IMG/VR virus record: IMGVR_UViG_3300025070_000024
Location: 1 to 64,000 of that record
Direction: 5' to 3' (one strand)
Source: a virus
Length of the DNA: 64,000 nucleotides
The position numbers were made by a program, and so were the translations under genes. The notes under the pieces are model-generated. The model ran no database searches. It was not told the DNA's origin and was given only the letters and a program-made list of their open reading frames with translations. This document shows positions 13,293 through 21,142 of this stretch, piece by piece. Every line of letters begins with the position of its first letter. Positions within the stretch are counted from its first letter, which is position 1.

Positions 13293-16200
13293 TCAGTTAT
13301 TTGTCTTCTCTTCCTCTAATCCCTGCATCTGGTTAGGGAGCATGGTAGCTGCATCATAGGGTCGCCCCATTGCTTGAATTTTAGCTACGTATTGAGGTGA
13401 AAGAACGTTTTGAATATAATCTTGTGCAAAGCTACCAACGTTTCTTGCACCTTGAGCAGAGTTTGTTCCCAGAAGAATTTCTTTCTGGTTGTTAAACTGA
13501 GTCACATCATTATTGTACTGGTTCCGCAAAGCATTATTTGCCGATCTAGCTTGGGTAGCTAAGTTCTCGTATTGTGCTTGCGCTCGTTGTCGCATTAGGT
13601 TGTCTGATGAACGCAATCTAGCATCTTGCTTAAATCGCTGAGCTAAAGCTGCCTGTTGATTAGACATACCTGAAGCCGTAGCAGGACTACTTTGCATTAC
13701 TGCACGAGCAGCATCACGATTGTCTTGAAGACTCTGACCTATATTACTCTGATAATTAAACTTAGGAATAACTGTAGTGCTAGGAGATGCAGGAGCCTGC
13801 ATATTCTCAATAGCCTTACGCATATCCCTTGTAGCTTTCATATTAGCAGCTAAAGGAACTATGCTCAAAGGAGTTTTAAAGTCTGGAATTTGTTCAGGGG
13901 CGGCTGGATCTGCTACTTCCCCATCTTCATACTCTGCACCAGAAGCGCCCTGCGTACCGCCAGTACCTTCACCGTCTGTACCAGTATCTCCATCACCTTG
14001 ACCACCTGTTTCTCCTTGTGCTAATTCTTCTTGTGCTAATGCTTCTTGATACTCTTCTTCAGACATTCCTGGTTCTCTTTGAACTGCCCTTCTTTCATTA
14101 GGAAACTGTCGAGCATCAAAATCAGGGAGCAGAGCTGCATTAGCTAAACCTGTGGCTAAGCCATTGTTTATTCCAAAAGCATTACCAAAAGTAGATACTG
14201 GCCTATTGCCAAAGAACTTAGGTGTTAAGACAGAGTGCGGAACATCCATTGTGCCTCCAGAAAACGGAAGAGGCTGACTACCACCAAAGTATGTAGAAGG
14301 TCTACCGACAGCACCACTTTGTCGTGCTAAGCCAGTATTTGCATTTCTTACAGACAATCCTCCCGGTTGCGCATACCGCTGCAAACCAGTTACTTGCGGA
14401 GTAAAGCCTCGTCCTGTACCCATAACACCTCCTCCAGGAATCAAAGTCTGTCCAGGTCTTAAAACACCTCCTGTCTTTCCAGCAAATTGACCTAATGCAT
14501 TACGAGACTGACCCGCACCAATACCCGTAAACACTCCTTGACCAGCACCTAAGTTATTTAAAGGTGCTTGATTAGGAAGAACTAGTCGATTACCTCCAAA
14601 CTGACCTAGCGCATTTCTAGTCTGTTGACTAGCCAAATACTCTTTAGCCTTAGGACCATACCCAGTAAACTTTGCAGCTCCTGCAACTTTAGGAGTAAAC
14701 CCACTTGATGCCGTAGCTTGAAAAGTAACTGGCTGTCCAGCTGCTGCAGTACCTGGCTTAAAAGTAAATCCCCGTCCAGGCTTACCTCCAGCTACTATAT
14801 TTCCACTAGTCCCAATCTGTTTTACATTAGGATTTGCTGCTGAAGCTACTTCTGGAATAGCTCTTTGAGAACTACCTAAAAGAGATGTCTGTGGTTTACT
14901 AGTATTCCAATTAAAAGACCTTGCTCCATCTTCACCAATAATGATTGTTCTAGGAGTCTTACCTACATTTTGTGTACCTCCTTTTACAGCAGTCCTTCGC
15001 CACTCACCCATAGTGGACTTAACTAGCTCTCTTCCTGTTACTGCCGCACCCGTCGCACCTTTTGCACCTTTAACAGCTCGTCCCCCCGGCATTAATAACG
15101 AACCACCTAGACTCTGAGTTGAGGCAGCTAATTGAGCACCGCTTTGGATTTCAGAGTCTTCGGTAGCATAAGATAAATAATCAGAGAAAGGAGTGTATCC
15201 CCCAACTCCTATATGAGATCCGCCTTTTTCATCTGTCCATTTTGTAGTTCCAGGGTTAGCAGCTACTTCAGCAGTTATTTCTTCTATTTTACGTTCATAC
15301 AGTCGTCGAGCTTGAGGGTCTTTTGGAACTGTTTCGTAGCGCATACTAGAGCCTGGAGCGACTCCGCCAATTTGCGATCCTGGTATTAGTCTTCGTTCTG
15401 TTTCAGGCTCAGTTATTCCTCTCTCCTCAGCGATACGCATGACGACGTCTTCAAAACCTCTGCCTGCTCCCGATGCTACACCTTCTCCGTAATGACCAGC
15501 AATATTTGTAAACCCTATACGCTGCGAATGACCGAAGCTGGGGTCAAAAAATCCTGGCCTATTTCCACCATCAGCATATCCTATATCGATATCGCTCATA
15601 TTACTCCCAAGACCGATATCTAACATCTGAGATGTTGTTCGCAGATCTACGCTAGTCTCGTAGGGTATACCTGAACCTCCACGAGCTGTAGCACTAGATA
15701 TGGACTTTTCAGGATTAGCTAAATCAAACTCCCCCTTCTTTACTACATAAGTATTTCCGTCTTTATTCCTAACGTTATAGTCGCCGTAAATATTTTCAGC
15801 ATAAATACTACCTGCATCTGTCTTGCCTGAATTATTTCCGCTGAACGGAACCCTATCAAAATTTAAAACCTCTATATCTTCTCCAATACTTTTCTGTAAT
15901 TCCTCAGGAGTTTTAGCTCTTGGTCCTGATGGAGAAGCTGTGTTTGGCTGCTCAGATGCAACACGCTCTGCTTGTGCTTCTGGAGACAGCATCTCAAACG
16001 GAGTAGTGTCTTCTACTGGCGTAGTAGATGTTTCAGCCTGAGCAGATGTTTCTGAAGGAGTATATTCAGATTGTGCAGAGTTGTACCACTCTTGCATCTT
16101 CGGCATGTTTTCCGTAAACAAAGTGTCTGACGGATCATACGTAACATCCGGACCATCTCCTGCAGTTTTTTTATACGTAGACGTCATTAAAGACTTTGCC

Positions 16201-16976
16201 TGCTCTTCAGTCAAGTCTTGAGTAACATCTATTCCGTATTTAGATAAAGGAGTCCCTTGCCCTTCATAATACCATCCTAATACCTGCGCCCCAATCTTTG
16301 GGTCGGTCGAGACTAGATCAGGATTTTTTACAAGCCTATCATCACCAAAAATTTTCTCACTAGCTGCGGCATACTGAGATTTACCTGTTAGTTGATTTGC
16401 ACCACGACCTCGGTATTTATAGCCATCACCAGGTTCAGTATTTCCTAAAGAATCTCGAGCGTATACGAAATCAAAAAACTTCTGGTCATCAGCCTTAAGC
16501 TTAGTTATCTCACTATCAGACATGTTCTTGAACAAACCTGTCTTCTCGAAAACTTCTTTAATTCGCTTGTTAGAAGTATTCTTATAGCTCTTCTCTTGCT
16601 GAGAAAGCTTTCCTCCGGATTCTTTATGAGTTACAGCAATAGCAGCTAATGCAGCGGAAGGACTATAGTTATAGTCTTTCATAAACATGTCCACTAAAAG
16701 ACTTTGATCGTCGGTAATAGTGTCGCCCCCGTCACCATACTTAGGCACAGTAGAACCGCCGTAATTCATTGCCGGTGTCTGAGCTTCTTTGCCTAGGCGC
16801 ATCTCTTCATTCTTTGCCTTCAACGCATTCAAAGCTTTCATACCCTTTTGCAGGTTAAGCTTAGCTGCATTCGCCATCGGACCTACAGGATAACGCGACA
16901 AAGTGTCCTCCTGCTTTTTAATAAAGCGACTGATTTCAGCTGCAATAGTTGCAGGAGTTTGTTTTTTCTTTCTCAT
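13293..16976 (-). CDS. Virion cargo protein with a GH19 chitinase/lysozyme-like peptidoglycan hydrolase domain, 1227 aa
   Basis: Motifs HKESGG, YARDSLGN, GDGYKYRGRGANQLTG and LVKNPDLV are typical of the GH19/phage lysozyme fold (~16270-16660). A long Gly-rich low-complexity region and a coiled-coil C-terminus follow. Confidence 0.8.
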   Translation of the reverse strand: MRKKKQTPATIAAEISRFIKKQEDTLSRYPVGPMANAAKLNLQKGMKALNALKAKNEEMRLGKEAQTPAMNYGGSTVPKYGDGGDTITDDQSLLVDMFMKDYNYSPSAALAAIAVTHKESGGKLSQQEKSYKNTSNKRIKEVFEKTGLFKNMSDSEITKLKADDQKFFDFVYARDSLGNTEPGDGYKYRGRGANQLTGKSQYAAASEKIFGDDRLVKNPDLVSTDPKIGAQVLGWYYEGQGTPLSKYGIDVTQDLTEEQAKSLMTSTYKKTAGDGPDVTYDPSDTLFTENMPKMQEWYNSAQSEYTPSETSAQAETSTTPVEDTTPFEMLSPEAQAERVASEQPNTASPSGPRAKTPEELQKSIGEDIEVLNFDRVPFSGNNSGKTDAGSIYAENIYGDYNVRNKDGNTYVVKKGEFDLANPEKSISSATARGGSGIPYETSVDLRTTSQMLDIGLGSNMSDIDIGYADGGNRPGFFDPSFGHSQRIGFTNIAGHYGEGVASGAGRGFEDVVMRIAEERGITEPETERRLIPGSQIGGVAPGSSMRYETVPKDPQARRLYERKIEEITAEVAANPGTTKWTDEKGGSHIGVGGYTPFSDYLSYATEDSEIQSGAQLAASTQSLGGSLLMPGGRAVKGAKGATGAAVTGRELVKSTMGEWRRTAVKGGTQNVGKTPRTIIIGEDGARSFNWNTSKPQTSLLGSSQRAIPEVASAANPNVKQIGTSGNIVAGGKPGRGFTFKPGTAAAGQPVTFQATASSGFTPKVAGAAKFTGYGPKAKEYLASQQTRNALGQFGGNRLVLPNQAPLNNLGAGQGVFTGIGAGQSRNALGQFAGKTGGVLRPGQTLIPGGGVMGTGRGFTPQVTGLQRYAQPGGLSVRNANTGLARQSGAVGRPSTYFGGSQPLPFSGGTMDVPHSVLTPKFFGNRPVSTFGNAFGINNGLATGLANAALLPDFDARQFPNERRAVQREPGMSEEEYQEALAQEELAQGETGGQGDGDTGTDGEGTGGTQGASGAEYEDGEVADPAAPEQIPDFKTPLSIVPLAANMKATRDMRKAIENMQAPASPSTTVIPKFNYQSNIGQSLQDNRDAARAVMQSSPATASGMSNQQAALAQRFKQDARLRSSDNLMRQRAQAQYENLATQARSANNALRNQYNNDVTQFNNQKEILLGTNSAQGARNVGSFAQDYIQNVLSPQYVAKIQAMGRPYDAATMLPNQMQGLEEEKTNN

Positions 16977-19900
16977 GAGATCATTTTCAAGAATTCGGAC
17001 GCATCAATCTTCATGTCTGTAGCATCGCTAAATACATATGGACTTTCAACTGGCTGACCTGTAATAGGATCAATATAACTTTCAGTAGCACCTTGTGTCA
17101 AAACACCTCCGCTTTCATGCTTCGGGCCTTGAACTTGATACATATTAGATGCTACCTGTTTGTAGTTGCCATTATTAGTAGCCATAGGAGGGTCTTGAGG
17201 ACTTGCCATCATCATCTCCCCACCTTCAGTTTCATATTGCGGTGCATTCATAGCACCCCCATAGTTAGCAACAGTGTTGTACCCTGCTCCCCGCTCGTTC
17301 ATTACTGAATTTACTTGCTGAGAATAGTCTGCCAAAGCTCCTCTAACTGCCTCACCTGTTTGCAGATTAGCAGCATTGTCTGCTTCATTTGCAAGACGAC
17401 GATCCCGACGCTGCTTTACCAACCCTGCGATACCTGCTATTGCCGCAATAGGAGCTGCCCCAGGTATACCTAGCATTAAAGCTCCTGCGCCACCCTTAAG
17501 TGCGTTGCCTGCAAAAGTTCCAAAGCCGTCATCTCCACTAGTCATAGTGTCAGCAGCCTTTCCAACTATTTGATTTACTCCAGCTGAAGCAAGATTCTTC
17601 AAGCCACCTGCCATTTTTGTGAAATCTGCTATTCCCGTGCCTCCAGGATTCAGTAATTGATTGACGAGCTGAGCACGTCCCTCTTGACCTGCTGCTCCTT
17701 TTACATTATCAAGCATAGAATTTAATCCTCCTGATTGTTGCATCTGATTAAAAATGCCTTCCAAATTTTGAGGGTTCATCGGTGCATTAGAGTTGCCTCC
17801 AGGAACTGGAGTAAACTCAGGAATATTTAGTGCAGGCATAGAAGCATTCATAGAGTTACTAGCTTGATCAGCCATAGAACCCTGAGATCCAAAAGGAGTG
17901 CTATTTCCTGCGCTTTGAGCTTGATCTAAAACTGGCTGCAACAAATCCTGAGAGTAGTTAGCAGTATTGCCTTGAGGATAGCTCAACATTCTGGCATTCA
18001 TACTTTGCTCTGGCAGAGGCTGATTGTACTCAGGATTACGAGGGCCAGCTGTATTTTGATTATTTATTGGACCACCAGGATATTGCCCAGTATCATTCAT
18101 ACTGAACAGAGGGAATGTGCTAGTGTCTTGATCTTGGAAAGGAAACCCAAAAACACCATTACCTTGAGGATCTCCAGCAGTAGGTTGTGCAGGTCGATTT
18201 TGAGCATGGTACGCCATGAGCTGCTGCTCATTACTCAACGTTGGGTTATTCATAATGAAGTCCATAGGCAAGTTCATCGCCCGTGGCTGCAAAATATGTT
18301 GCTTCAGTCCTTGACCTAAAGACATACCTGTAGGCACAGCTAAAGTTGTATCACCAAACTGCCCGTAATGCTCTGTAAGCTCTCCTACGTTAGCCGAGGT
18401 ATCTTGGCTCCCTAACATGCCTAACAGCTCTGACACAGGACTGCCATAATTTGCTTTTGGAGGCGCAACTCGTGGTTTGGTCATCGTACCTCCGAAAAAC
18501 CCTGTAGGTAGGTTTAGGTGTTTTTGAAGTGATGGTGGGATATCTAGCTTAGGAGGCGTAACTGGTGATACTGGTGGTTGGGTTTGAAACCTAAGCAACC
18601 CATCATTAGTTTTTAATCTCATAACACCTTCCATTGCACGTTTACCGGTTAATTTATCTGGATACCCCATACCTCGAACTCCTAAACCAGATCGAACTTC
18701 ATCCATATACTCTACAGGGTTTGTATATGCTCCAGCTTGGTTCTGTCCCGGGAATGGACGAATGGGACCATACCGAACTTGTAATTGCTGCAAGTTCTTT
18801 GGACTAGAAGCCGAAAGCTGTGGGACGTTTTCTAAATCGTAGAAATCAAATTGTCCCGTGTTTTTATTATAGTTGATATTCCCTCTGATATTGTCTAAGT
18901 CCAGACCGATACCTCTGTCCCGAAGCTGTCTTACTTGTTTCAGAGCTGATGCATAAGCATCTCTTGTCGGGAGTTCAGGTGCTCCTGGAACTGCTTCTTG
19001 TTTTTGCAAGTTCCTCATTATAGTTAAGTCATTCTGACTACGTAGTGGAGCTGCTACATTTGGCATATCATCAGCAATCTCGCTAGTCCTGGCTATGAAA
19101 TCATCAGTTGTTCCAGAATACCTGCTAGTCGGCAAGACAGCATTAGGATTGCTAAATTCTTGGTGAGGAAATTTTATTGCATAAGGACTATTCTTGAACT
19201 CATGTACAGTTCCAAAACCTCCCGATCCTAACTGTTCACCAAAGGGTGTTTTAGCATAAAGCTCCGCATCCAATCTATCCGCATGCCCCCAATTAAGACT
19301 ATTGTTTCTACTAACGCCTTCCGCAAGTTGATTGAATCCTGCCTCTGGATTCAAGTCCATTCTCATTGGATCAATAGGTTTATTGTAACCGAATAAAAAA
19401 TGAGGCTTGTCTCCAACATTTCTAAATCCCATAGGATTTTTCAGTGCAGGGTTTGCCTTATACAGATTTTTTACTCCAGTAACGCCTGCTTGCTTTAGAG
19501 CTTGTCTTGTTCCTGCTCCTGTTATACTTATTCCAGGTATTGCTCCAAGCGCATTTAATCCTGCACCAATAAAATTACCTTGACTTGCATCCCTTAAAGC
19601 ATTCTTCCCATAGTTTACCCAAGCAGCAGGGTTGACTAAATCATTTGCCACCTGCCCAGCTATAGTACCTTTTCCTTTGGCCTGATCGAACTCTACTTGA
19701 GAAGGCATTCCTTCTACGCTTGGGTCGAGGATTGTTCTAGCAGTGGTGATTGGGTTAGCTGCCATCTCTAAAAGAGACGGATTGTCCTCTATGATATTGC
19801 CGTCTTCATCTACCTCAAAATCCCCTTGGGATATACGAGGCATTGCATTTAATTGAGACAGTGCATCTGAAGCAGCTAAATTTTGCTGCAGTGCATCTAG

Positions 19901-20128
19901 ACCTCCCGCTCTTTCAATCTGTTGAGCGATTAGTGGGTTGTACCCAGAATTGGTATCAGAAGTAGCTGTTAACGGCTTTAGTGGGTCTGTTTCACCACCA
20001 AGTTCATATGTGTAATTTTTAGGACGCGGTTTTGCCTTAGAGCGATTTTTGCTCTTAGACTTTAAACCCAACACTACTTCAGCGAGGTTCCTTTTCTCAC
20101 ACCTATGACCGTTAAACTTTTTGCTCAT
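16973..20128 (-). CDS. Putative virion cargo protein with an internal protein-kinase-like domain, 1051 aa
   Basis: Kinase-like motifs LGSGGFGTV, YAIK, GIGLDLDNIRGN and FDFYDL. The C-terminal ETEGGE...GPKHESGGV motif is of the kind seen in crAss-like cargo proteins. Confidence 0.7.
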   Translation of the reverse strand: MSKKFNGHRCEKRNLAEVVLGLKSKSKNRSKAKPRPKNYTYELGGETDPLKPLTATSDTNSGYNPLIAQQIERAGGLDALQQNLAASDALSQLNAMPRISQGDFEVDEDGNIIEDNPSLLEMAANPITTARTILDPSVEGMPSQVEFDQAKGKGTIAGQVANDLVNPAAWVNYGKNALRDASQGNFIGAGLNALGAIPGISITGAGTRQALKQAGVTGVKNLYKANPALKNPMGFRNVGDKPHFLFGYNKPIDPMRMDLNPEAGFNQLAEGVSRNNSLNWGHADRLDAELYAKTPFGEQLGSGGFGTVHEFKNSPYAIKFPHQEFSNPNAVLPTSRYSGTTDDFIARTSEIADDMPNVAAPLRSQNDLTIMRNLQKQEAVPGAPELPTRDAYASALKQVRQLRDRGIGLDLDNIRGNINYNKNTGQFDFYDLENVPQLSASSPKNLQQLQVRYGPIRPFPGQNQAGAYTNPVEYMDEVRSGLGVRGMGYPDKLTGKRAMEGVMRLKTNDGLLRFQTQPPVSPVTPPKLDIPPSLQKHLNLPTGFFGGTMTKPRVAPPKANYGSPVSELLGMLGSQDTSANVGELTEHYGQFGDTTLAVPTGMSLGQGLKQHILQPRAMNLPMDFIMNNPTLSNEQQLMAYHAQNRPAQPTAGDPQGNGVFGFPFQDQDTSTFPLFSMNDTGQYPGGPINNQNTAGPRNPEYNQPLPEQSMNARMLSYPQGNTANYSQDLLQPVLDQAQSAGNSTPFGSQGSMADQASNSMNASMPALNIPEFTPVPGGNSNAPMNPQNLEGIFNQMQQSGGLNSMLDNVKGAAGQEGRAQLVNQLLNPGGTGIADFTKMAGGLKNLASAGVNQIVGKAADTMTSGDDGFGTFAGNALKGGAGALMLGIPGAAPIAAIAGIAGLVKQRRDRRLANEADNAANLQTGEAVRGALADYSQQVNSVMNERGAGYNTVANYGGAMNAPQYETEGGEMMMASPQDPPMATNNGNYKQVASNMYQVQGPKHESGGVLTQGATESYIDPITGQPVESPYVFSDATDMKIDASEFLKMIS

Positions 20129-20256
20129 CCACTGCAGCTTTCACAATCCTCAGGACTGTCGGTATTACATGTAAGTTCACCACTCTTCAGTTTGTCAGCT
20201 GTATCCTTTAATTTCTTAGGATCCAGAAAAGTCGCTTCTTTCCATTCTTCTTCCAT
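20125..20256 (-). CDS. 43-aa Cys-rich microprotein resembling the class Ia RNR C-terminal tail
   Basis: MEEEWKEATFLDPKKLKDTADKLKSGELTCNTDSPEDCESCSG*. Start and stop overlap the neighbouring genes (TAATG and ATGA coupling). It is below the ORF-track cutoff. Confidence 0.75.
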   Translation of the reverse strand: MEEEWKEATFLDPKKLKDTADKLKSGELTCNTDSPEDCESCSG

Positions 20257-20450
20257 TACTTCTTCTTTTTACGGGGTTTCACCACAGCCTTCTTAGGCAT
20301 TTTGCTAGTACTAGTCTTACCACCGTATCCATATTGAGTCATTACTGAGCTAGGAGTTTTACCTCCGCGTCTCATAGAGCCAAGCATTTTCATAACGACA
20401 TTTTTTGGGATTCCCCTTTTCATAAGGGTTTCAGCTTTTTTGTTTTTCAT
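20256..20450 (-). CDS. Small basic protein, 64 aa
   Basis: MKNKKAETL...RRGG...YGYGG...KPRKKKK. The ATG at 20450 lies just after the upstream stop, so it is preferred to the 20552 start in the track. Confidence 0.7.
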   Translation of the reverse strand: MKNKKAETLMKRGIPKNVVMKMLGSMRRGGKTPSSVMTQYGYGGKTSTSKMPKKAVVKPRKKKK

Positions 20451-20454
20451 GGTA

Positions 20455-20760
20455 TTAACATTTCCAACGTCTACGTGCTTGACGTATACGTGAGTTAGGG
20501 TTGTTACGAGTTTTTGCACTGCTACGTTTGAGTTGTCCCAAAGAGCGAGCACAATATGATTTACGACGTCCTGCAGCCTTACTACCTTTTTTCACTTTTC
20601 CAGTTACAGCAGTTTTTAATTTACTTCCTGGATTTGCTTTACGATATGCCCGGACACCTTTTTTGGTCATCCCTGCACCAGATTTAGTAGGTCTGTAGTT
20701 CGCAGATTTTCCTTTCGTTGTTTTACGAATAGGAGTAGACTTTTTTCGTTTAGCAGGCAT
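20455..20760 (-). CDS. Small, highly basic phage protein (DUF6321-like)
   Basis: GAGMTKKGVRAYRKANPGSKLKTAVT...RRKSYCARS...SRIRQARRRWKC is a motif pattern widespread in aquatic phages. Confidence 0.7.
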   Translation of the reverse strand: MPAKRKKSTPIRKTTKGKSANYRPTKSGAGMTKKGVRAYRKANPGSKLKTAVTGKVKKGSKAAGRRKSYCARSLGQLKRSSAKTRNNPNSRIRQARRRWKC

Positions 20761-20933
20761 TACTTCTTCTTCTTTTTACGACGAGTAGTTTTCTTCGCCG
20801 TTTTTTTAGAATCCTTAAAAGCTTTAGAAGTGGGAGCACCTTTAGCTCCTTTTTTGCGCATAGTCTCACCAGACCCTGCCTTAATACGTTTACGCTTAGC
20901 GTGAATGTTTGCGTACAATCCTTTACGTGCCAT
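20760..20933 (-). CDS. Small basic protein, 57 aa
   Basis: MARKGLYANIHAKRKRIKAGSGETMRKKGAKGAPTSKAFKDSKKTAKKTTRRKKKKK*. The stop overlaps the next ATG. Not in the ORF track. Confidence 0.75.
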   Translation of the reverse strand: MARKGLYANIHAKRKRIKAGSGETMRKKGAKGAPTSKAFKDSKKTAKKTTRRKKKKK

Positions 20934-20935
20934 AG

Positions 20936-21142
20936 TTATTTGTCCATTTGATTACGAGCTAAGAGCAGTTTTATTTCTGCTAAGTCGTCGACTACTTGCT
21001 CTAGCTTCTTATCTACCTTTTCATTGTTATTCTCTAGAGAATATTGCTGTGCTTTTATAGTCATTACTTCACTATGAAGTTTGACATAAATGCCTACCAT
21101 ACCTATGGCAAGTCCTATTATTTCATAATCAGTCAAACTCAT
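20936..21142 (-). CDS. Small membrane-anchored coiled-coil protein (holin/spanin-like?)
   Basis: N-terminal hydrophobic helix followed by a heptad-rich segment. Confidence 0.55.
   Translation of the reverse strand: MSLTDYEIIGLAIGMVGIYVKLHSEVMTIKAQQYSLENNNEKVDKKLEQVVDDLAEIKLLLARNQMDK

What the first reader, a model, noticed from the sequence alone, without database searches (positions are those of the whole stretch)
20125..20256. Stand-alone 43-aa mimic of the ribonucleotide reductase C-terminal redox tail
Seen: the peptide ends CNTDSPEDCESCSG*. Known: class Ia RNR large subunits end in a flexible C-x7-C-x2-C tail (human RRM1, from memory, CSLENRDECLMCGS) that shuttles electrons from thioredoxin or glutaredoxin to the active site. 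The Cys spacing is the same. Inference: a trans-acting redox shuttle, RNR modulator or thioredoxin decoy. It is oddly placed among late virion genes and coupled to the kinase-cargo gene.
Basis: partly seen in the sequence, partly recalled or inferred. Interest (0 to 1): 0.7.

Follow-up and report, generated by a model that had tools for sequence, protein, structure and literature searches.

The report
Phage peptide copying host RNR tail
A 43-residue gene of a marine crAss-like phage belongs to a large, unnamed family of phage peptides whose last 16 residues closely match the redox-active tail of the ribonucleotide reductase of Bacteroidota, so it may be a new way for phages to act on the host's DNA-precursor supply.

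Summary
ORF 20125..20256 (-) encodes the stated 43 residues and overlaps both neighbouring genes.

It is a real gene. Across 89 distinct DNA versions pN/pS is 0.20, with synonymous sites near saturation. Relatives lie in at least 118 viral contigs and form 20 clusters at 50% identity. Neither Pfam nor PHROGs has a family for it.

The likeness to the RNR tail goes beyond cysteine spacing. A family profile searched against all PDB sequences hits only yeast Rnr1 at E below 1, at its last 16 residues (E 0.0027). The same tail ends the RNR alpha subunit in Bacteroidota, the host phylum of crassviruses. It was nearly absent from a Pseudomonadota sample.

The phage has no RNR, thioredoxin or glutaredoxin gene.

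My reading is a stand-alone copy of the alpha tail that acts on host RNR or on its thioredoxin. I could not test this, and I cannot say whether it would boost or block the enzyme.

Its place among late genes, next to lysis genes in other phages, argues against a simple replication-time helper. The "kinase" label of the neighbouring gene was not confirmed. Earlier notes of this scan hold only this same stretch.

The parts
20125..20256 (-). 43-aa ORF including its stop codon; a member of an unnamed family of small phage proteins
   Evidence: Searches give the sequence. Searches give relatives. One search gives pN/pS 0.197. Searches find no Pfam or PHROG family.
20128..20175 (-). Tail module, residues 28-43 (LTCNTDSPEDCESCSG); resembles the C-terminal redox tail of class Ia RNR alpha
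   Evidence: profile positions 31-46 align to yeast Rnr1 873-888, E 0.0027. Bacteroidota RNR alpha tails; best six-frame match in whole genomes; modelled mostly as coil, block-mean pLDDT 55-69.
20176..20232 (-). N-terminal module, residues 9-27 (TFLDPKKLKDTADKLKSGE); conserved F-L-D ... K-L-K ... S-G-E, predicted helix; partner unknown
   Evidence: F, L and G are invariant in 89 of 89 distinct sequences and use 2, 6 and 4 codons; helix 13-25, block-mean pLDDT 80-84. Searches found no significant match of this part to RNR.
20256..20450 (-). Upstream 64-aa basic ORF; its TAA shares a base with the peptide's ATG
   Evidence: Found only in the window and in L033 among 118 loci.
16973..20128 (-). 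Downstream 1051-aa ORF at the position of crassvirus cargo protein C1; its ATG overlaps the peptide's TGA
   Evidence: Gene order R1, 1383-aa ORF, small ORFs, this ORF, compared with the order given in passages of PMC10172136. No Pfam or PDB match that supports a kinase.

Best explanation
The ORF encodes a free-standing copy of the flexible C-terminal redox tail of the host's class Ia RNR alpha subunit, joined to a short conserved helix. In RNR, the tail's cysteine pair enters the substrate pocket, reduces the active-site disulfide after each turnover, and is then re-reduced by thioredoxin or glutaredoxin. This is established knowledge; I read passages of PMC3483043, PMC6382339 and PMC11903788. 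I infer that the phage peptide, made late and possibly packaged with the cargo proteins, engages the same partner as the native tail, namely the RNR alpha active-site pocket of a Bacteroidota host. It would act either as an extra diffusible dithiol shuttle that speeds re-reduction, or as a competitor that blocks substrate or native-tail access. Shown here: it is a selected gene, its tail matches RNR alpha tails of the host phylum, and the phage has no RNR. Inferred: any binding, any redox activity, and the direction of the effect.
For: Real gene: pN/pS is 0.197 with pS 0.88 over 89 distinct DNA versions. Residues outside the search pattern are invariant with 2 to 6 codons each.

Tail match, tested without prior choice: a profile of 13 family members searched against 177,635 PDB sequences gave four hits at E up to 10. 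The top three are yeast Rnr1 at E 0.0027, aligned to its last 16 residues. The fourth has E 1.5.

Of these, 119 are the C-terminus of an RNR alpha-type ORF, about 790-950 aa where the ORF is complete in the locus. 75 of the 80 record titles shown are Bacteroidota.

The first Cys (118 of 118) and the Ile two residues before it (102 of 118) agree with the peptide although the pattern did not require them.

Six-frame profile search of whole genomes: in 4 of 4 Bacteroidota genomes the best match is the end of a roughly 800-aa ORF, E 9e-5 to 3e-3. In an even sample of 301 Bacteroidota genomes, 14 matches end at the last profile position in ORFs of 786-835 aa. For 6 of these the RNR core motif was read directly.

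In the control phylum, only one of 300 other genomes gave a match. It lies in a 986-aa ORF that I did not examine.

Both ending variants, CSG and CGS, occur in the peptides and in RNR alpha.

The phage, 80,916 bp and 100% complete by CheckV, has no RNR alpha, RNR beta, thioredoxin or glutaredoxin match. Only 1 of 12 near-complete peptide-bearing viral records has an RNR, and that one has a different tail.

Crassvirales infect Bacteroidetes (abstract of PMC10136315). The window is crAss-like: capsid, portal and ring proteins 1, 2 and 3/4.

Variants with other N-terminal parts keep the tail (P0006 and P0008; L259).
Against: There are no functional data of any kind.

The gene sits among late virion genes here. 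In other phages it lies directly after a holin-like gene (32 of 118 loci), an M15 endolysin (27) or an SLT-domain internal virion protein (21). It is not found with replication genes, which is odd for a dNTP-supply helper.

The statistics rest on a 16-17 residue match: E 0.0027 against PDB, and 1e-4 to 4e-3 per genome.

Only 14 of 301 sampled Bacteroidota genomes pass that threshold. The actual host is unknown.

A single-sequence search with the window peptide did not reach RNR in PDB or in the 1.84-billion-protein library.

The conserved N-terminal helix has no counterpart in RNR, so its partner is unknown.

One relative lacks the first Cys.

No deposited phage genome among 50,697 carries the gene, so no cultured system is at hand.

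Metatranscriptome contigs gave almost no cover of the ORF.
Confidence: 0.5

Rival explanations
1. A peptide aimed at thioredoxin rather than RNR. The tail is the part of RNR that thioredoxin recognises. The peptide would titrate host thioredoxin, or recruit it through the N-terminal helix to a late process such as virion assembly or lysis timing, with no direct action at the RNR active site.
For: It shows the same tail match as the main reading. It lies in the late, virion and lysis gene neighbourhood. The conserved N-terminal helix has no RNR counterpart and could be an adaptor. [quoted passage not shown]
Against: No thioredoxin-dependent step is known for these phages. The thioredoxin-fold ORFs near the gene in 5 of 13 phage records carry signal peptides and lack CxxC, so they are not partners in the cytoplasm. 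A reduced decoy does not consume reducing power unless something oxidises it.
Confidence: 0.2
2. A small structural protein that binds metal or forms disulfides, associated with the virion or cargo. The likeness to RNR would be convergence on a Cys-rich acidic C-terminus.
For: It overlaps the start of the cargo-position gene, whose N-terminus MSKKFNGHRCE is conserved. Three cysteines are conserved. Some relatives carry extra Cys-rich N-terminal stretches (P0006 and P0008; L259). It sits among late genes.
Against: The match to RNR tails includes I, D, P, E, E, and S/G-G/S, as well as the exact end of the chain, not only the cysteines. There is only one CxxC and three Cys, which is short of a four-ligand site in one chain. 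The downstream partner differs in most of the 118 loci. The tail is modelled mostly as coil with low confidence.
Confidence: 0.15
3. A regulator of lysis, for example a modulator of holin or endolysin.
For: It lies directly downstream of a phrog_3427 'holin' homologue in 32 of 118 loci and of a Peptidase_M15_3 endolysin in 27. A roughly 69-aa membrane protein follows it in 10 loci.
Against: Position alone is weak evidence in small phage genomes, where accessory genes gather at module borders. In the window it is not next to such genes. This reading gives no explanation for the RNR-type tail. The peptide has no signal peptide or membrane segment.
Confidence: 0.1
4. A dead remnant of a captured nrdA 3' end, or a chance ORF.
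For: It is short, and nothing in these data shows translation (one search was inconclusive).
Against: pN/pS is 0.197 at near-saturated synonymous divergence. The gene is conserved across unrelated gene neighbourhoods. Its start and stop overlap both neighbours. The ESM Atlas holds a cluster of 1033 viral members.
Confidence: 0.02

Closest known systems
C-terminal redox tail of class Ia RNR alpha (yeast Rnr1 residues 873-888; NrdA of Bacteroidota)
   Same: It has the same C-x7-C-x2-C-x2-end layout and the same non-cysteine residues (I.C..D.PE.CE.C followed by SG or GS). It sits at the very end of the chain and is predicted to be flexible.
   Different: It is not attached to an RNR catalytic domain. 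It is a separate 43-aa gene product with its own conserved N-terminal helix, encoded by a phage that has no RNR. It differs consistently at three positions: N where RNR has S, D where RNR has N or G, and S or N where RNR has M.
Synthetic C-terminal peptides of the RNR small subunit (P7, N-AcFTLDADF)
   Same: These are short tail-derived peptides that act on RNR alpha in trans and inhibit by competition (passages of PMC3483043). The Bacteroidota NrdB genes next to the matching NrdA end in F(S/T)LD(E/A)DF.
   Different: Those peptides copy the beta tail, are man-made, and block subunit association. This peptide copies the alpha tail and is natural. A by-eye likeness between the peptide's FLD.D stretch and the beta tail found no support in the profile searches.
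Small intrinsically disordered RNR regulators of yeasts (Sml1, Hug1, Dif1, Spd1)
   Same: They are small proteins that bind RNR subunits and tune dNTP supply. Sml1 binds Rnr1 and Hug1 binds Rnr2 (passages of PMC4245953). I recall, and did not read here, that Sml1 competes with the Rnr1 C-terminal domain (Zhang et al. 2007).
   Different: No sequence relation was found (Pfam gave nothing). Those proteins are cellular and not redox-active, and none copies the alpha tail.
Thioredoxin, glutaredoxin and NrdH as diffusible dithiol reductants of RNR
   Same: They are diffusible carriers of a redox-active cysteine pair in the RNR electron chain.
   Different: Those are folded thioredoxin-fold proteins of about 75-110 aa that reduce the tail. 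This peptide is a 43-aa copy of the tail itself and matches no thioredoxin or glutaredoxin family.

Membership tests
Class Ia RNR alpha C-terminal redox tail | Cysteine pair (CX2C in the eukaryote-like type) within the last few residues of the chain, with a third Cys seven residues upstream | tested here: met
   (C30, C38, C41, two residues before the end). 16 of 20 family clusters keep this layout exactly. The same spacing holds in 118 of 118 RNR alpha tails.
Class Ia RNR alpha C-terminal redox tail | Sequence likeness to bona fide tails beyond the cysteines | tested here: met
   The profile search against PDB gives yeast Rnr1 873-888 as top hit, E 0.0027. It is the best six-frame match in 4 of 4 Bacteroidota genomes and matches 14 of 301 sampled genomes.
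Class Ia RNR alpha C-terminal redox tail | Being the end of an RNR catalytic subunit (PF02867 barrel) | tested here: not met
   The ORF is 43 aa with no Pfam family. There is no PF02867 match anywhere in the 80,916-bp phage record. It is therefore a copy of the tail and not an RNR.
Class Ia RNR alpha C-terminal redox tail | Flexible, disordered segment | tested here: inconclusive
   The AlphaFold2 model from 24 sequences shows the tail mostly as coil (a three-residue helical turn at 35-37) with block-mean pLDDT 55-69. A prediction for so short a chain is weak evidence.
Class Ia RNR alpha C-terminal redox tail | Reduces the active-site disulfide and is re-reduced by thioredoxin or glutaredoxin | not testable with these tools
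   This needs enzyme assays.
Thioredoxin / glutaredoxin / NrdH | Thioredoxin fold with a CxxC active site | tested here: not met
   No Pfam match. The chain is 43 aa with one helix.
Zinc ribbon or zinc knuckle proteins | Four metal ligands, usually two CxxC or CxxH knuckles in one chain | tested here: not met
   Only three Cys, one CxxC and no His. Zinc binding by a dimer or with a partner is not excluded.
RiPP precursor peptide | Modifying enzyme genes next to the precursor | tested here: not met
   Among the ten largest neighbour clusters across 118 loci, those with a Pfam or PHROG match are lysis or virion genes (SLT, M15, holin-like), DUF5675, a PHROG of unknown function or an EF-hand motif. 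None matches a modifying enzyme.
Sml1 / Hug1-type RNR regulators | Sequence membership in those families | tested here: not met
   The Pfam scan of the peptide returned no family at E up to 0.01.

The most novel reading that the evidence does not exclude
Many uncultured aquatic phages of Bacteroidota carry a 40-odd-codon 'portable RNR tail'. This would be a minimal host-directed metabolic gene that plugs into the electron path of the host's class Ia RNR. It might even be delivered with the virion's cargo proteins at infection. It would either replace the tethered tail as a faster diffusible shuttle or jam the active site to control the host's dNTP supply. The peptide endings (CSG or CGS) would track the tail variants of the hosts' NrdA.
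Probability: 0.3. Interest if true: 0.85.

Novelty: new variant of a known kind. Interest (0 to 1): 0.72.

Why it matters
RNR is the only de novo route to DNA precursors. Many marine phages carry whole RNR genes to secure that supply. A natural, free-standing copy of the alpha tail would be a different and much cheaper way to act on the same step. It would be the first natural trans-acting alpha-tail peptide that I could find. It would also give RNR enzymologists a ready-made probe for the poorly resolved re-reduction half-cycle. It would put a testable function on a large unnamed family of viral small proteins: at least 118 IMG/VR loci and an ESM Atlas cluster of 1033 members. The tail variant might also hint at the host lineage of uncultured phages.

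Tried and rejected
Pfam and PHROGs scans of the peptide found no family.

tblastn of the window peptide and of P0007 against 50,697 deposited phage records gave only chance-level hits (E of 2 or more) or none.

A single-sequence phmmer search against PDB found no RNR. Only the family profile reaches it.

I looked for fused forms. The 'longer' search with the single sequence found none. With the profile it returned 7 proteins. Several look like read-throughs with unrelated neighbouring sequence on short contigs, for example P0026 with an M15 peptidase. Two (P0028, P0029) are longer N-terminal versions. None is fused to a redox or RNR domain.

I considered a phage-encoded thioredoxin as the reductant. 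The weak PF00085 matches in 5 of 13 phage records are secreted thioredoxin-fold ORFs without CxxC, so I rejected this.

I considered that the peptide's N-terminal FLD.D stretch also copies the NrdB tail F(S/T)LD(E/A)DF. It looks similar by eye, but no profile match to NrdB appeared. I keep it only as a lead.

Two other genome matches were checked. The match in G333 lies antisense inside a 542-aa gene and is a chance hit. The match in G235 (64 aa with an internal TAG) was fetched but not examined further.

Expression: three metatranscriptome runs from one study hold small shares of the stretch. Their contigs mostly cover the DUF6321 gene of relatives. One contig of a relative (35 differences in 268 bases) spans part of the ORF. 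This shows neither transcription nor its absence.

The kinase identity of the 1051-aa neighbour found no support in Pfam or PDB.

Literature: searches found no paper describing a phage or viral stand-alone alpha-tail peptide. Supplementary files were not consulted. Zhang et al. 2007 was not read; it is known to me only through citing passages of PMC6382339 and from recall.
Full report
The observation. Window 20125..20256 on the minus strand runs from ATG to TGA and encodes 43 aa, MEEEWKEATFLDPKKLKDTADKLKSGELTCNTDSPEDCESCSG. That gives C-x7-C-x2-C followed by two residues and the stop. Its ATG shares a base with the TAA of an upstream 64-aa basic ORF (20256..20450). Its TGA overlaps the ATG of the 1051-aa ORF 16973..20128. 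No intergenic base lies on either side.

The setting. The window lies in an 80,916-bp IMG/VR virus record rated 100% complete. It is a crAss-like phage. Pfam finds the crassvirus major capsid protein, a P22-like portal, and tail ring proteins 1, 2 and 3/4. The gene order is ring protein 1, a 1383-aa ORF, five small ORFs, then ORFs of 1051, 1227 and 540 aa, then an open frame of more than 3902 aa. This parallels the order R1, muzzle, cargo C1, cargo C2 and RNA-polymerase proteins described for PhiCrAss001 (passages of PMC10172136). I did not test the identity of the 1383-aa ORF or of the long open frame beyond their position. The peptide gene is the last of the small ORFs, between the muzzle position and the C1 position.

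It is a real gene.
- Close relatives of 42-43 aa exist.
- A HMMER search of 1.84 billion representative proteins gave 21 hits at E up to 0.001. Twenty are family members. The other, P0022, is a repeat protein without the tail.
- 115 of the 118 loci give a tblastn hit to the window peptide at E up to 1e-3. The remaining three are cut by the locus end or too short.
- Over the last 35 codons, 89 distinct DNA versions give mean pS 0.88 and pN 0.17, so pN/pS is 0.197.
- Positions the pattern did not fix are invariant although they use several codons: F (2 codons), L (6), G (4) and the first Cys (2), each in 89 of 89.
- Columns 27-35 of that set were fixed by the search pattern and say nothing. The independent HMMER set shows what really varies there: C-(E/K/L)-(S/N/M/A)-C followed by SG or GS.
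- In that set, 16 of 20 clusters have exactly C-x7-C-x2-C-x2-end.
- The ESM Atlas places the peptide nearest to a viral 'hypothetical protein' cluster of 1033 members.
- Neither Pfam nor PHROGs has a family for it.
- None of 50,697 deposited phage genomes carries it.

The likeness to the RNR tail. This was the key question, and it can be tested without choosing the answer beforehand.
- A profile of 13 family members searched against all 177,635 distinct PDB sequences returned four hits at E up to 10. The top three are yeast Rnr1 at E 0.0027. Profile positions 31-46 align to residues 873-888, the very end of the 888-residue chain: IACAIDNPEACEMCSG against the consensus itCniDnPEdCesCsg. The fourth hit has E 1.5.
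- 119 of these are the C-terminus of an ORF with the RNR alpha core motif, about 790-950 aa where the ORF is complete in the locus, typically ending IACSLDDPE(N/G)CEMCSG. One is a stand-alone 44-aa peptide on a 10.8-kb contig.
- 75 of the 80 record titles shown are Bacteroidota.
- In the 118 RNR tails with 18 residues available, the first Cys (118 of 118) and an Ile two residues before it (102 of 118) agree with the peptide family, although the pattern did not ask for them.
- Searching the profile in six frames through whole genomes gives, in each of four Bacteroidota genomes, one best hit: the last 17 residues of a roughly 800-aa ORF, E 9e-5 to 3e-3 per genome.
- In an even sample of 301 genomes of that phylum, 16 had a match at E up to 0.01. 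Fourteen of these end at the last profile position in ORFs of 786-835 aa.
- I read the RNR motif directly in six of the 14. For the other eight, identity rests on ORF size.
- One of the two remaining matches is a chance antisense hit.
- The same search in 301 genomes of the phylum of G034 found, apart from G034's own stand-alone peptides, one match in a 986-aa ORF that I did not examine. G034's record title names Parvibaculum, which is Pseudomonadota.
- Other Bacteroidota RNR alpha chains end in CE(M/A)CGS, and several peptide clusters also end in CGS. Both ending variants therefore occur on both sides.
- The NrdB genes beside these NrdA genes end in F(S/T)LD(E/A)DF, the same as the mammalian R2 heptapeptide cited in PMC3483043. 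These are RNRs of the eukaryote-like type.

What the phage lacks. The complete record has no match to RNR alpha (PF02867), RNR beta (PF00268), thioredoxin (PF00085) or glutaredoxin (PF00462). Of 30 peptide-bearing viral records, one has an RNR. Among the 12 that are at least 90% complete, it is one of 12. That RNR ends in a different tail. The peptide is therefore not an accessory to a phage RNR. If it acts on an RNR, that RNR is the host's. Crassvirales infect Bacteroidetes (abstract of PMC10136315).

Anatomy.
- AlphaFold2 with 24 sequences gives mean pLDDT 72. It models a helix at residues 13-25 and, apart from a three-residue helical turn at 35-37, a coil for the tail, with block-mean pLDDT 55-69.
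- The N-terminal half (acidic start, F-L-D, K-L-K, S-G-E) is conserved but has no significant counterpart in RNR.
- Relatives with other N-terminal parts, some Cys-rich, keep the tail (P0006 and P0008; a 57-aa ORF in L259). The tail is the constant module.

Neighbourhood in other phages.
- Only about a tenth of the 118 loci share the window's crAss-like context: 9 have the C1-position protein downstream and 10 have the DUF6321 gene nearby.
- Elsewhere the gene lies directly after one of three neighbours. A 146-aa homologue of phrog_3427 ('holin') precedes it in 32 loci. A Peptidase_M15_3 endolysin precedes it in 27. An SLT-domain internal virion protein precedes it in 21.
- A roughly 69-aa membrane protein follows it in 10 loci.
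- It therefore behaves as a small mobile gene that settles at the borders of late modules.
- The overlap with the cargo-position gene is a feature of this lineage only. In 6 of 7 loci found with that protein, the peptide ORF sits directly upstream. The seventh match starts at residue 161 and is uninformative.

Mechanism. The following is established, from passages I read. After each turnover the active-site cysteines of class I RNR are oxidised. They are reduced by the cysteine pair of the flexible alpha tail. That pair is then reduced by thioredoxin or glutaredoxin (PMC3483043; PMC6382339; PMC9669993). Tail binding and substrate binding in the pocket are mutually exclusive, and thioredoxin binding depends on the tail's oxidation state (PMC11903788).

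A free peptide with the same tail should therefore meet the same two partners. My best reading, at about 0.5, is that it acts at the host RNR alpha active site. Two outcomes are possible, and I cannot choose between them from sequence.
- It may be an additional diffusible dithiol shuttle. That would be useful if re-reduction limits steady-state turnover, as I recall from E. coli kinetics but did not check here.
- It may be a competitor that occupies the pocket.

The late-gene position argues against a plain replication-time helper. It fits a late function, or delivery with the virion's cargo. Neither is shown.

Rivals.
- A thioredoxin-directed decoy or adaptor (0.2) shares all the sequence evidence and fits the late position.
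- A metal- or disulfide-linked virion component (0.15) fits the position and the Cys-rich variants. It does not explain the agreement at non-cysteine residues and at the chain end.
- A lysis regulator (0.1) rests on position only.
- A dead fragment of nrdA (0.02) is contradicted.

Novelty and limits. Five full-text searches found no description of a viral or phage stand-alone alpha-tail peptide. The nearest known things are synthetic beta-tail peptides, the yeast regulators Sml1 and Hug1, and thioredoxin-type reductants. The scan's earlier notes hold only this same stretch, read twice.

The case rests on a 16-17 residue match with modest E-values. It is strengthened by the position at the chain end, the restriction to the host phylum, the extra agreeing residues and the shared ending variants. 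The host of this phage is not known, and only 14 of 301 sampled Bacteroidota genomes pass the threshold. No expression or protein data were obtained; two searches were inconclusive. Every functional statement above is inference.

Noticed in passing
window 20455-20933 (-): The DUF6321 gene (20455..20760) and a 57-aa basic ORF (20760..20933, phrog_16028) match pelagiphage, cyanopodovirus and roseophage genomes at 70-77% DNA identity. These are small basic genes shared by otherwise unrelated marine phages. The DUF6321 stretch also has the highest summed depth in marine metatranscriptome contigs.
   Followed up: partly
window 20256-20552 (-): The listed 98-aa GTG ORF overlaps the end of the DUF6321 gene in another frame. 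The likely gene is the 64-aa version starting at the ATG at 20450.
   Followed up: partly
window 16973-20128 (-): The N-terminus MSKKFNGHRCE(K/R)RN of the cargo-position protein stays conserved even where the rest has diverged to 34-48% identity or matches only residues 1-40. The 'kinase' label found no support in Pfam or PDB. Only a glycine-loop-like GSGGFG...AIK stretch is visible by eye.
   Followed up: partly
window 13293-16976 (-): The 1227-aa ORF at the position of cargo protein C2 carries a lysozyme or chitinase-like stretch at residues 114-252 (phrog_181 endolysin E 1.4e-19; Glyco_hydro_19 just under its Pfam cut-off).
   Followed up: no
L252-L256, also L005 4201-4566: Several peptide-bearing phages encode a 121-128-aa thioredoxin-fold protein with a signal peptide and no CxxC motif (VVEFNA.FN in its place). 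In some loci it lies a few genes from the peptide.
   Followed up: partly
L126-L245 (for example L139, L155): NrdB of these Bacteroidota ends in F(S/T)LD(E/A)DF, and in some genomes in exactly FTLDADF. That is the heptapeptide known as an inhibitor of mammalian RNR (PMC3483043).
   Followed up: no
L259 2928-3101 (+): A 57-aa ORF has a Cys-rich N-terminal part and the same tail (ending CENCGS). It lies between small membrane/coiled-coil ORFs and a DUF5675-like ORF on a 30-kb contig of a MAG labelled Parvibaculum. This is probably phage DNA.
   Followed up: partly
L246 1-348 (+): The one peptide-bearing phage record with an RNR (G007) has only the last 115 residues of the gene at the contig start. 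Its tail is a different CxxC type.
   Followed up: partly
window 20936-21142 (-): A 68-aa ORF with one N-terminal membrane segment and a coiled-coil-like tail (phrog_6179) recurs as the gene directly after the peptide in 10 other loci, at 28-33% identity. It may be a lysis or membrane component.
   Followed up: no
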